From Octopus sinensis (lineage: Eukaryota), in assembly GCF_006345805.1 (NCBI RefSeq), contig NC_043009.1:68448001-68512000 (forward strand): a stretch of DNA of 64,000 bases. The letters are read 5' to 3'. Below are positions 1 to 25,289 of this stretch, one piece after another. The notes under the pieces are model-generated. The model saw only the letters and a list, made by a program, of their open reading frames with translations. It did no database searches and was not told where the DNA came from. A program made the translations under genes and the position numbers. How positions within the stretch are numbered: the first letter of the stretch is position 1; the number at the start of each line of letters is the position of its first letter.

Positions 1-1297
1 ATTATATATTCATCTTACTTGTGGACCCCGTCATGACTACAGTCACTGGGTTATCCCCCTTCACCCCTTCCACCATTAAATCGCGAAAACCCAGCAAAGA
101 GTTTAACCAAAACCACATAGAAACACACAAACACATAAACGTTTAAACAGAGGCTTAAGGGTTCCGGCACCGCCCAACACCTCCATTCTCCAAAATCTCT
201 ACACATATAAACCCATACACACATTCCAACCCTACACAAATACCAAACTCTACCCACCCCACCCCACTACATATATTTTCTCCAGACTTTTGCCGCCTTG
301 CAGCGTCTCAGATACTTCTAGAGCCAAGGGACAGAACTCTTAAAGCTCTTATCCAGGGCGCCTCCCACAACTTCGTTACATCTTTCTCGGCAGCATCCAC
401 AAACTGGATGTAACACTTTTCGCGTCCAATAACAAAGAGCAGTCACCATATATTTTACATGCCTGTCATCTCTGAAGAGTACGTGGCACTACTTAACCAT
501 GCTGTTATATAATATCCGGCTATTTAATATCCAGTGCAAAACCGATTGGTAAGATTGGCTGAAATGGATCTACGTTACAGAACCACACTCTTTCACTGTT
601 TTTCCCTGGAATATAATTTACATGAAAGGCATAGCTTTGACAGCTTCAGACTCAAAGCTAGGGATAAAACACTAAACTTTAGCATTGCGCAGTGTCGTCA
701 TTATTAGCAGTTGCAATCGTAATAATTTTATTAAGCTTTCATTCTGCGGAGGTTTATGTTTTTTTTCCTTTAAATATTTTGTGATCCTCACCACTCTCGC
801 TTGATTTGAAGAGATAATATCGGGTCCTTTTGATACAGCACATGAAAGATGAAGCTCACTAATTGTTTTTTTTTTTCTGCTTCTTTGGTTTTTGATTGCG
901 TATATAAAATGGCAGTGTCTCCATCTCTCAACACACACACACGTTTACGAAAAACAACAACAAAAGACGAAGACAGGTGGTGTACAAAACAAACATGTAT
1001 TAGTATAACACTCAGGAATGGAAAAAGTCTTTTACGTTTCGAACCTACGCTCTTCTACAGAAAGGGACACAGAAAAAAACAAGGTAAGAAACAAAGAGAG
1101 AAAAAATGTGTATAGTGGCTAACGATCTATCATGTACATTGTCGTAATACAAATTAAGTACCAAATGCATTATTATTATTATATTTGCGTAATAATCATC
1201 TTTCTTCTTCTCTGACTGCTAAAGCACAGTTATTTACTGAAGCTTGCTTTTAAGAGGGAAAACAAAATAAATACATCAGACATTTATTTTTTCCCTG

Positions 1298-22960: not shown

Positions 22961-23406
22961 CACTCCCTTGAGCACTATCTTTATTTTGTCAAAAATTCAG
23001 TTTCCTTAGCTTTTATTTATTAGTGTGGGACCCAAATTTTCTTTTGGGGTGCAACCCAAGTTCCCGGGCCTTTGCTTGTATTTAGAATACAAAATCCTCT
23101 AGAGTTTTGTTTTGGTCTATTATCATGACTTCCTCTGCCTATTAATGTTAGATGTTTCTTTTCTCCAAAGTTATTTTACACAGGAAAACTGCAAGACATT
23201 CTAAATGGCACACCAATGAAAAATTTCCTTGAAATATTTTAGTAGTGCAGCCTGATGATGAGCCATGTCTCATGGGTCCTCTGCTGCCTCCTCCTCCTCA
23301 TACTTTACACACTTCATTTATTTGGTACAGTTCTATATTCAAGAGATGAGGAATTATGTACATTATTTACATTTGATGGATATTTGTCCTCATCTTGTTT
23401 GTTGTT

Positions 23407-23452
23407 AACACAACGTTTCGGCTGATATATCATCCAGCCTTCATCAGGTGTC
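23407..23452 (-). ncRNA. minimal type I hammerhead ribozyme (Penelope-type)
   Basis: GACAC-CUGAUGA-A-GGCUGG(augauaua)UCAGCC-GAAA-C-GUU^GUGUU: stems I and II pair; stem III is the loopless palindrome typical of PLE dimeric hammerheads. Confidence 0.7.
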
Positions 23453-23499
23453 TTGGAGAAATTTCGAACCTAGGTTCTCATTCCTAAGGTATTTTTCGA

Positions 23500-23537
<38 letters not shown>

Positions 23538-23834
23538 TCACTGCCTGGAATCGAACTGGGAATCTTGGGGTTAGTAGCCCGTGCTCTTAGCCACTACACC
23601 ATATGCCTTGCCTGTGGGCAATTACGGAGTGAATTTTTAGGGCTTATAAATCTAATGTTTTTCTATCCTTCCTTAATACCAGTTCTAACATACCACTCAT
23701 ATCTGCACTCAGTCTGCACTCGAGAATGAAGTTAAAATAACAGAATGCCACTGGAAAATACGAAAACTAAAAGAAGCAGCACATATGATAGGACACAACA
23801 ACTCCAAGATTCCGAGTTCAATTCCAGGCAGTGA

Positions 23835-23914
<80 letters not shown>

Positions 23915-23940
23915 TAACCCAGGTTCGAAATTTCCCCAAC

Positions 23941-23995
23941 ACACCTGATGAAGGCTGGAGGGTATATCAACTGAAACGTTGTGTTAACAACAAAC
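23941..23995 (+). ncRNA. second hammerhead copy with a weakened stem II
   Basis: ACAC-CUGAUGA-A-GGCUGG...UCAACU-GAAA-C-GUU-GUGU. Confidence 0.55.
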
Positions 23996-24650
23996 AAGGT
24001 GAGGACAAATATCCGTCAAATGTAAATAATGTACATAATTCCTCATCTCTTAAATATAGAACTGTATTCCACTAGAATAGTTTCATAGTTATAACTTTCA
24101 GAGAGAGAGAGAGAGGGAGAGGGCGTGGAGGGAGGGATGAGGAGAGAGAAGGAGAGAGAGAGAGAGTGAGAGAAAGAGGATGCAGGTTTATACAGTTGAA
24201 TGGCTACAGTTTCCAGAAAGTTGAATCTAATTCAACATCAGTGTGGTTGGAATCACACATACTTAGACGTAATTTCGTAGTCGGATTGTTTGTTTTATCA
24301 GTCAATATCCAGGAGAAATTACCTGGTCAGTGTAGATTAATGAACTGGTACAGGAGATGAATTATGTCACACTCCATAAAGCAGAGGATTTCACTGGAAG
24401 GAGATATATTACTTATTGGAATATACTGTTCGAAAACAATTTCCAGGTTAAAACCTTGGAAGAGACGGTGTTCTGTGATGTTCGACATAATTATTCCTCT
24501 TAACACTAATTGCCAACTTTACTCTGCATGGATGACTTATTCTCAATACAAACTGACACAGGAGTTAAACAATGAGACGGATCATAAGAAGGGTTGGAAT
24601 TGTGACCCTTTTGTAGTCAGGAACCTACGTTTTTAACCCTAAAATTTTAT

Positions 24651-25112: not shown

Positions 25113-25289
25113 CTTCCATGGAGGGTTCATGTTCCCCTTGGAAATGTTTCGTCTTGAAATGCATTTGCATTGAAGGGAAAGCAAAAATAATTTCTCGATC
25201 ATGACTGTAGTCCTGGGTTTTCCGTGATTTTTTATGTTCCGTTGGACTTTCCGGTTTGTCGTGCTGGATGGCAGGAAACGTGTCAAGAT
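25113..25289 (-). CDS. BLTP1: BLTP1 exon (DLDTFPAIQ...HDREIIFAFPSMQMHFKTKHFQGEHEPSME), 177 nt, phase 1-1
   Basis: Acceptor tttcag|, donor |gtatgt; EIIFAFPSMQMHFKT motif; in frame. Confidence 0.91.

What the first reader, a model, noticed from the sequence alone, without database searches (positions are those of the whole stretch)
23328..24064. Fold-back element combining a tRNA-like Pol III head, (AAT)n and hammerhead ribozymes within TA|CAGT ends
Seen: read on the minus strand, the left arm runs A-box TGGTGTAGTGG and B-box GTTCGATTCC (23606-23534), then (AAT)n, then an intact minimal hammerhead (23452-23407), then an AT-rich tail. The right arm is its inverted copy with a truncated head and mutated stem II. 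The termini look like Tc1/mariner ends (TA, CAGT). Established: Penelope-like elements carry such dimer-dependent hammerheads in pLTRs and often have inverted pLTRs. Inference: a non-autonomous, Pol III-driven ribozyme retroelement (a SINE/retrozyme hybrid mobilised by Penelope), or a MITE that captured one. The intact ribozyme is sense to the BLTP1 pre-mRNA, and the arms form a long dsRNA that would mask it and attract ADAR.
Basis: partly seen in the sequence, partly recalled or inferred. Interest (0 to 1): 0.75.

Follow-up and report, generated by a model that had tools for sequence, protein, structure and literature searches.

The report
Penelope retrotransposon with tRNA-type promoter
This hairpin-shaped insert is two back-to-back, cut-short copies of the end repeat of an abundant protein-coding Penelope-type jumping gene; that repeat begins with a tRNA-derived segment at which most copies that reach it begin, so the element likely starts its RNA from a tRNA-type (RNA polymerase III) promoter, which would be unusual for a protein-coding element.

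Summary
The described parts are real, but this is neither a MITE nor a separate SINE. It is a two-armed, 5'-truncated insertion of an abundant Penelope/Poseidon retroelement (about 835-aa RT + GIY-YIG ORF). The spacer is the end of the endonuclease. The 'AT-rich tail' and the TA|CAGT 'termini' are the first ~52 codons of the ORF, which overlap the hammerhead. Across the family, 62 of 64 head-to-head insertions have one long and one short 3' end, and 43 of 64 have ~12-bp target duplications. This locus is the one long+long case and has none. The unusual feature is family-wide: a tRNA-derived head between ORF end and ORF start. 31 of 45 arms that include its A box begin at head positions -7..+10 and none at -8..-30. 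One copy starts there and runs 1.06 kb into the ORF. The sense strand lacks TTTT (modest evidence). Likely a Pol III-type start site, possibly for the whole coding RNA; untested. In BLTP1 pre-mRNA the ribozyme is predicted to be masked. The scan has reported this family before on other DNA of this and another genome.

The parts
23326..23500 (-). Left arm: 5' UTR linker plus first ~52 codons of the Penelope ORF (ATG at 23481); ends at the distal 3' end site (about +156 from ATG)
   Evidence: 96.6% to family majority; same sequence runs on into the ORF in L170, L166, L146, L143
23407..23452 (-). Minimal type-I hammerhead motif with intact core, inside the ORF start; predicted cut 23412/23411; predicted to need a dimer
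   Evidence: Sequence; architecture matches min-HHR of PMC4209133; not matched by Rfam; activity untested
23500..23533 (-). (AAT)n array between head and ORF start, of variable length in all copies
23534..23608 (-). tRNA-derived head with A box 23601-23591 and B box 23556-23547; likely internal Pol III promoter. The family's inferred start site is about 6 nt upstream of tRNA position 1 (this copy has a 4-nt insertion there)
   Evidence: End-to-end alignment to own tRNA genes, best Arg(TCT) 49-50 of 77-79, z 6.6-6.9; 5'-end pile-up
23609..23717 (-). Last ~24 codons of the ORF (stop 23646-23644) and short 3' UTR: 5'-truncated start of the left arm
23726..23802 (+). Piece of the GIY-YIG endonuclease C-terminus (HWKIRKLKEAAHM): 5'-truncated start of the right arm
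   Evidence: 572 first-look candidates in G000
23800..23841 (+). 3' half of the head (from +37, B box with one substitution), joined to the endonuclease piece at a microhomology; about 150 nt of the family sequence are missing
23839..23915 (+). (AAT)n array of the right arm; ATG region deleted
23916..24068 (+). Right arm: ORF start with hammerhead (23940-23985, stem II mutated); also ends at the distal 3' end site
   Evidence: 97.4% to family majority
25113..25289 (-). Upstream BLTP1 exon (context; boundaries read from AG/GT); the insert lies about 1 kb into the following intron

Best explanation
[quoted passage not shown] SHOWN: family order is ORF end - short UTR - tRNA-derived head - (AAT)n - ATG - hammerhead inside the ORF - RT - GIY-YIG; 3' ends fall at two sites in the ORF start; head-to-head insertions nearly always carry one end of each kind between ~12-bp target duplications; 5' ends pile up at the head. 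INFERRED: RNA begins about 13 nt before the A box; the element's protein, probably a dimer as predicted for PAc, nicks both target strands ~12 bp apart and primes reverse transcription from both, at the proximal and distal sites; the two cDNAs join head-to-head at microhomologies. Priming on the 5' repeat yields SINE-like 300-nt arms as by-products, priming on the 3' repeat yields ORF-bearing copies. This locus is atypical (two long ends, no duplication, internal deletion at a microhomology) and likely arose by a deletion or template jump that fused two arms. In BLTP1 pre-mRNA the sense hammerhead is predicted to be sequestered in long dsRNA, so it is likely inert.
For: Order EN-UTR-head in 28 of 29 EN-anchored loci. 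Head followed by linker, hammerhead or tail in 28 of 29 head-anchored loci. Tail runs on into the ORF in L170, L166, L146, L143; full pLTR-ORF-pLTR in L172. Majority ORF open for 825+ aa with YVDD and VY-C-C-YKG; 42% identical to a protein with RVT_1 and GIY-YIG hits. 3' ends: 108 of 238 at +116..131 and 89 of 238 at +151..164; the same two clusters as loose ends in 4 of 4 runs from four organism codes. 62 of 64 pairs long+short; 43 of 64 with TSD score >=9 against 1.2% for shuffled flanks. 5' ends: 31 of 45 arms (tail- or HH-anchored) at -7..+10, 0 at -8..-30, 14 beyond; 35 of 39, 1 and 3 in the head-anchored set. The pile-up persists in loci with no inverted head next to the end: 17 of 27 and 18 of 21. 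L171 starts at head +4, runs about 1,065 nt into the ORF and has a near-perfect 10-11-bp duplication. No TTTT on the sense strand of the majority over about 2.6 kb; P = 0.008 (base shuffle) and 0.03 (synonymous shuffle); copies 0.31/kb against 2.2-2.6/kb in copies of two other PLE families. PAc precedent for two start sites, nicking of both strands, predicted dimer and HH over the ORF start (PMC11167929). Left HH pairs with the far arm with mean probability 0.91.
Against: No transcript, ChIP or activity data. The start region is a small palindrome and a second internal hairpin (+17/+36) also collects junctions, so hairpin-driven stopping or joining explains part of the pile-up. The sorting is crude (some short fold-backs and one internal deletion were counted as 'other'). 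TTTT depletion is weak against controls when only ORFs are compared: 1 in 2,526 nt and 4 in 1,869 nt versus 0 in 2,484 nt, P = 0.11, and GGGG is absent too. Rfam and default ARAGORN do not recognise the head, and only six tRNA isotypes were compared. The one PLE promoter dissected is a TATA-less LINE-like promoter with an intron (PMC2377424). Loci were the best-scoring hits, not a random sample, and the query selects long ends. An uncapped RNA with a ribozyme in its ORF start is a poor mRNA.
Confidence: 0.68

Rival explanations
1. Same Penelope family, but the head is a passenger (an old tRNA or SINE insertion with an AAT tail fixed in the master's pLTR). Transcription is by Pol II, and 5' ends pile up there because of a Pol II start site or because the small hairpin stops RT or lets the two cDNAs anneal.
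For: Junctions also cluster at the internal hairpin +17/+36. Loose-end consensus at the head's 5' side shows a short fold-back. ORF-only TTTT contrast with controls is not significant. D. virilis Penelope has a LINE-like promoter in its pLTR (PMC2377424). PMC10886601 argues that autonomous elements must use Pol II.
Against: Pile-up persists where no inverted head abuts the end, and many ends include the whole hairpin, with a sharp limit at -7/-6 and almost none at -8..-30. The limit sits where a tRNA-type promoter would start (about 6 nt before tRNA +1; recalled knowledge). Both boxes match consensus in the majority sequence.
Confidence: 0.22
2. One reading: the 300-nt head-(AAT)n-hammerhead-tail unit is a separate non-autonomous SINE/retrozyme family that multiplies from its own short copies with borrowed Penelope enzymes.
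For: Most arms start at the head, and solo short copies with target duplications exist (L014, L029). Each short copy keeps promoter and at least one start site. B box is somewhat better kept than the rest of the head (2.7% vs 5.0% non-CpG changes; open to ascertainment).
Against: 88 ORF-linked and 69 head-start arms share one majority sequence; differences are at CpG sites or reflect alignment selection. The 'tail' is ORF sequence. In PAc the minimal template needs 172 nt of ORF, beyond the start sites; short copies here end at +160 or earlier.
Confidence: 0.07
3. A Tc1/mariner-type MITE with TA|CAGT ends that captured a ribozyme unit.
For: At this one locus both ends read TACAGT.
Against: That sequence is codons R-T-V of the ORF. 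62 of 64 insertions have unequal ends, sizes run from 234 to 1,557 nt, and duplications are about 12 bp.
Confidence: 0.01
4. This copy has been co-opted to regulate BLTP1 through co-transcriptional cleavage or an edited dsRNA.
For: The intact core is sense to the pre-mRNA and the hairpin is long.
Against: Both arms carry ordinary decay (3-4% in the ORF-start part). The antisense arm is transcribed first and is predicted to mask the ribozyme. No second sense hammerhead motif of this family lies in the window. Orthologous conservation could not be shown.
Confidence: 0.02

Closest known systems
Penelope/Poseidon EN+ PLEs, in particular PAc of Anolis (PMC11167929, parts 1-2 of 4 read; PMC8557442, passages)
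   Same: Single RT + C-terminal GIY-YIG ORF, CCHH motif, no Cys-rich linker, pLTR partial tandems, inverted 5'-truncated arm, one-sided ~30-nt tail, hammerhead overlapping the ORF start, two RT start sites about +120 and +155.
   Different: The pLTR here opens with a full-length tRNA-derived segment and (AAT)n, and copies begin at it. None of the texts read reports a tRNA-derived or Pol III promoter in a PLE; D. virilis Penelope uses a TATA-less LINE-like promoter with an intron (PMC2377424, abstract and Discussion).
Schistosome SM-alpha/Sj-alpha SINE-like hammerhead elements (seen only through the review PMC6765202, passages; original not held)
   Same: Pol III-type promoter next to a hammerhead in a short repeat.
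   Different: Non-coding tandem repeats with canonical hammerheads; here the unit is the pLTR of a coding element with a minimal hammerhead and head-to-head arms.
TRIMp3: Cassandra, Helenus, Ajax (PMC10886601, part 1 of 6 and passages)
   Same: Small-RNA-derived Pol III promoter inside a terminal repeat, possibly from a SINE insertion.
   Different: Those are non-autonomous LTR elements of at most ~1.3 kb; the author expects their autonomous partners to use Pol II. Here the head sits in a 2.7-kb coding PLE.
Metazoan non-LTR retrozymes (PMC7229834, passages; bioRxiv 10.64898/2026.07.22.740005, parts 1-3 of 5)
   Same: Short hammerhead-bearing units related to PLE pLTRs.
   Different: Direct tandem arrays, no ORF, circular RNA; no Pol III head in the passages read. 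Here arms are inverted or solo and continuous with the ORF.

Membership tests
Penelope/Poseidon PLE | One ORF with RT and C-terminal GIY-YIG endonuclease | tested here: met
   (the decayed copy P0002 itself gives no Pfam hit; its relatives do)
Penelope/Poseidon PLE | CCHH motif with two Cys between GIY and YIG; no CX2-5CxxC linker | tested here: met
   Read from translations against the definition in PMC8557442; the control families do show the Cys-rich linker
Penelope/Poseidon PLE | pLTR partial tandem, inverted 5'-truncated arm, 30-40-nt tail at one end only | tested here: met
   L172/L166; 62 of 64 pairs. The window locus itself is the one long+long exception
Penelope/Poseidon PLE | Minimal hammerhead in the pLTR | tested here: met
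   Motif and stems in the majority and in the left arm; cleavage not tested
Penelope/Poseidon PLE | RT groups with Penelope/Poseidon in a tree | not tested
   No named reference set was in hand; assignment rests on domain features
tRNA-derived SINE | tRNA-derived head with A and B boxes | tested here: met
   not detected by Rfam or default ARAGORN
tRNA-derived SINE | Non-coding family with its own lineage, apart from the partner | tested here: not met
tRNA-derived SINE | Ends in poly(A) or a simple repeat | tested here: not met
   (AAT)n is internal; ends lie in the ORF
tRNA-derived SINE | Transcribed by Pol III | not testable with these tools
   Only indirect signs
Tc1/mariner MITE | Fixed terminal inverted repeats at both ends | tested here: not met
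Tc1/mariner MITE | TA target duplication | tested here: not met
   About 12-bp duplications of unrelated sequence
Non-LTR retrozyme | Direct tandem units each with a hammerhead, no ORF | tested here: not met
Non-LTR retrozyme | Self-cleaved linear and circular RNA | not testable with these tools
   No raw RNA reads were offered

The most novel reading that the evidence does not exclude
An autonomous, protein-coding retrotransposon transcribed over its full 2.7 kb by RNA polymerase III from a captured tRNA promoter, with its ORF selected to avoid Pol III terminators. One element would act as LINE and as source of its own SINE-like copies, and its strict one-long/one-short two-armed insertions with ~12-bp duplications would record dual priming by a dimeric Penelope enzyme.
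Probability: 0.35. Interest if true: 0.85.

Novelty: new variant of a known kind. Interest (0 to 1): 0.6.

Why it matters
Pol III promoters are known in non-coding parasites (SINEs, SM-alpha, Cassandra/Helenus/Ajax); a 2024 paper expects autonomous partners to need Pol II (PMC10886601). A coding Penelope element that starts at a tRNA-derived head would be an exception and a direct route from a PLE to SINE-like copies, and it raises the question of how such an RNA is translated with a ribozyme in its first codons. Separately, thousands of copies give a clean statistical record for an open question, how PLE inverted ends and one-sided tails form: one long plus one short end in 62 of 64 insertions with ~12-bp duplications makes a dual-priming model testable with the existing PAc-type in vitro system. 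The single locus in BLTP1 is of little interest by itself.

Tried and rejected
Rfam and default ARAGORN: no tRNA or hammerhead call; relaxed ARAGORN also hits unrelated sequence, so it was not used as evidence. Pfam on the decayed copies P0001 and P0002: no family; PDB search only weak RT hits, E >= 0.14. RNA: no RNA holder listed; only contigs were available, which cannot show start, strand, cleavage or editing. One search used a reference (L119) that proved mutated just at the start region, so its depth profile and the guessed-RNA runs were not used; only the loose-end consensus is cited. Empty site: no contig joined the two flanks (one search covered the left flank and arm only), so orthologous presence or absence is open. 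Search for sister Poseidon families with a distant query returned the same family in 20 of 20 fetched loci, so no headless close relative was available as control. Core conservation among copies is uninformative: core and neighbouring positions decay alike, as expected of dead copies. Arms of one insertion are as divergent as arms of different loci (8.2% vs 8.3%): no sign of conversion. A script slip duplicated part of the upstream model; counts are from the corrected. The first majority lacked 21 nt missing from its backbone copy; rebuilt on two other copies, still without TTTT. No intron search and no RT tree were done. Literature: eight searches found no report of a tRNA-derived or Pol III promoter in a PLE; Repbase, Dfam, the Zenodo library of PMC13282606, preprint supplements, Ferbeyre 1998, Lunse 2017 and Ohshima and Okada 1994 could not be read, so the family may be annotated there.

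Full report
OBSERVATION. The arms pair over 151 nt (93%) and 73 nt (96%), and the minus-strand RNA folds as one long hairpin (z = -29). The left hammerhead has an intact core, a 5-bp stem I, an unpaired A before stem II and a palindromic two-pair stem III, the minimal form described for PLEs (PMC4209133, parts 1-2 of 4 read); the right one has two changes in stem II. Rfam and default ARAGORN call nothing here. The host gene is BLTP1 on the minus strand (5 of 10 pieces hit PF25040), and the insert lies about 1 kb into an intron. The best named BLTP1 relatives are bivalves at about 70%; with a 2.7-Gb genome the host is a mollusc, probably an octopus (inference; earlier scan notes also say octopus).

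WHAT IT IS. The tail query has 3,335 first-look candidates in G000; one further unit turned up in 333 kb fetched for other reasons, which suggests thousands to tens of thousands of loci. The spacer between the arms is not neutral: it encodes the C-terminus of a GIY-YIG endonuclease, and in 28 of 29 loci found with it the order is ORF end, short UTR, head. Walking upstream gave a 551-aa open RT-EN copy and copies in which hammerhead and 'tail' run straight on into the ORF (L170, L166, L146, L143), one with pLTRs at both ends (L172). The family majority is open for about 835 codons, with YVDD, a CCHH-type endonuclease and no Cys-rich linker, which fits Penelope/Poseidon as defined in PMC8557442 (passages); no tree was built. 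The ATG lies in the linker (window 23481), the hammerhead overlaps codons 11-25, and the 'AT-rich tail' is codons 25-52. A 56%-identical relative keeps a similar peptide over the hammerhead region. The TACAGT ends are codons R-T-V read backwards.

HOW COPIES ARE MADE. 3' ends fall at +116..131 (108 of 238) or +151..164 (89 of 238) from the ATG (the query favours long ends). The same two clusters appear as loose ends in 4 of 4 large runs of four organism codes (one may be the window's own sample). This matches PAc, where RT starts at two sites inside the ORF start and the interval is the 'tail' (PMC11167929, parts 1-2 of 4). Among 113 loci, 64 hold a head-to-head pair; 62 have one long and one short end, and 43 have a target duplication of score 9 or more, mostly 12-13 bp, against 1.2% for shuffled flanks. 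The one-sided tail is known qualitatively (PMC8557442); I found no text giving this ratio or duplication length. Inferred: both target strands are nicked about 12 bp apart and primed, one at each start site, and the cDNAs join at microhomologies; junctions do cluster at internal inverted repeats (+17/+36). The window locus is the single long+long pair, lacks a duplication, and its right arm jumps from the endonuclease to head +37 at a microhomology. One deletion or template jump that fused arms of two insertions would explain all three oddities; this is untested.

THE UNUSUAL PART. The head aligns end to end, with both boxes in register, to this genome's tRNA genes: best Arg(TCT), 49-50 of 77-79 positions, z 6.6-6.9; Ala and Cys are close and only six isotypes were available, so the source is not fixed. 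It is not an independent SINE: 28 of 29 heads are followed by the family's linker, hammerhead or tail, and 88 ORF-linked and 69 head-start arms share one majority. Of 45 arms found by tail or hammerhead that include the A box, 31 begin at -7..+10 of tRNA position 1, none at -8..-30 and 14 further up; in the head-anchored set 35, 1 and 3 of 39. Because the start region is a small palindrome, I removed loci in which an inverted head abuts the end; 17 of 27 and 18 of 21 still begin at -7..+9 (crude sorting). Loose-end consensus in four runs also converges on this spot, with a short fold-back (the reference was poor there). L171 begins at head +4, runs about 1,065 nt into the ORF and is framed by a near-perfect duplication, so an RNA that began at the head contained ORF sequence. 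The sense strand of the majority has no TTTT in about 2.6 kb (P = 0.008 and 0.03 against base and synonymous shuffles), and copies have 0.31/kb against 2.2-2.6/kb in copies of two other PLE families, UTRs included. Against this: in ORFs alone the controls have 1 in 2,526 nt and 4 in 1,869 nt (P = 0.11), and GGGG is also absent. So a start site at the head is well supported, Pol III is likely, and Pol III transcription of the whole coding RNA is plausible but open.

THE LOCUS IN BLTP1. On the pre-mRNA the antisense right arm precedes the sense left arm, and the left hammerhead pairs with it with mean probability 0.91. With a dimer-type ribozyme, low in vitro activity reported for this class and protein dependence in PAc, cleavage of BLTP1 RNA is unlikely. 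Editing is plausible and was not testable.

COMPARISON AND NOVELTY. It is a Penelope/Poseidon element by every feature tested, and fails SINE, MITE and retrozyme membership (see tests). It works like SM-alpha (review PMC6765202, passages) and TRIMp3 elements (PMC10886601) in pairing a small-RNA promoter with a terminal repeat, but those are non-coding. The dissected D. virilis promoter is LINE-like with an intron (PMC2377424, abstract and Discussion). Eight searches found no PLE with a tRNA-derived promoter; two octopus repeat surveys (PMC13282606, parts 1-2 of 3; PMC8967140, passages) do not describe it in the text read, but repeat libraries and supplements were not seen. I had reached this reading; the scan's notes, read, report the same family with the same reading from other windows of this genome and from another genome. 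They are not independent support.

VERDICT. Observation confirmed; interpretation partly supported. New variant of a known kind; interest 0.6. Most novel case, a fully Pol III-transcribed coding retrotransposon: probability 0.35, interest 0.85 if true.

Noticed in passing
L185:1052-1171 (G000:C19): A piece of ORF sequence (about +173..+206) lies directly upstream of a head that starts at -7, in the same orientation; looks like RT jumping from the 5' end of one RNA onto the ORF start of another, a possible route to partial tandems.
   Followed up: no
L010, L014, L026/L027, L064, L083: The family's (AAT)n array is often interrupted by 0.4-1.3-kb insertions or expanded repeats; it seems to be a landing site for other elements.
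   Followed up: no
L259-L308: Two other PLE families with C-terminal EN and a Cys-rich linker (Neptune/Nematis-like by that feature), one young with open frames of 500-750 aa; no canonical hammerhead or A/B-box pattern was matched in their majority sequences.
   Followed up: partly
Family hammerhead, ORF position +39: The free core position N7 is the most variable non-CpG core base (A in 27 of 172 copies), and a loose-end consensus in run X19 shows C there; hints at constraint on the core among master copies, confounded by coding.
   Followed up: partly
Family ORF about +87..+138: A 9-bp stem is predicted to enclose the proximal 3' end site in an A/C-rich loop, resembling the stem-loop where PAc starts reverse transcription.
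   Followed up: partly
window 23190-23290: A separate low-copy repeat just left of the insert (raised contig depth in 4 of 4 runs).
   Followed up: no
L070:1424-1573: Two complete heads in direct tandem in one arm.
   Followed up: no
L225 (G000:C12): A cluster of about seven tRNA-Cys-type genes within 3 kb.
   Followed up: no
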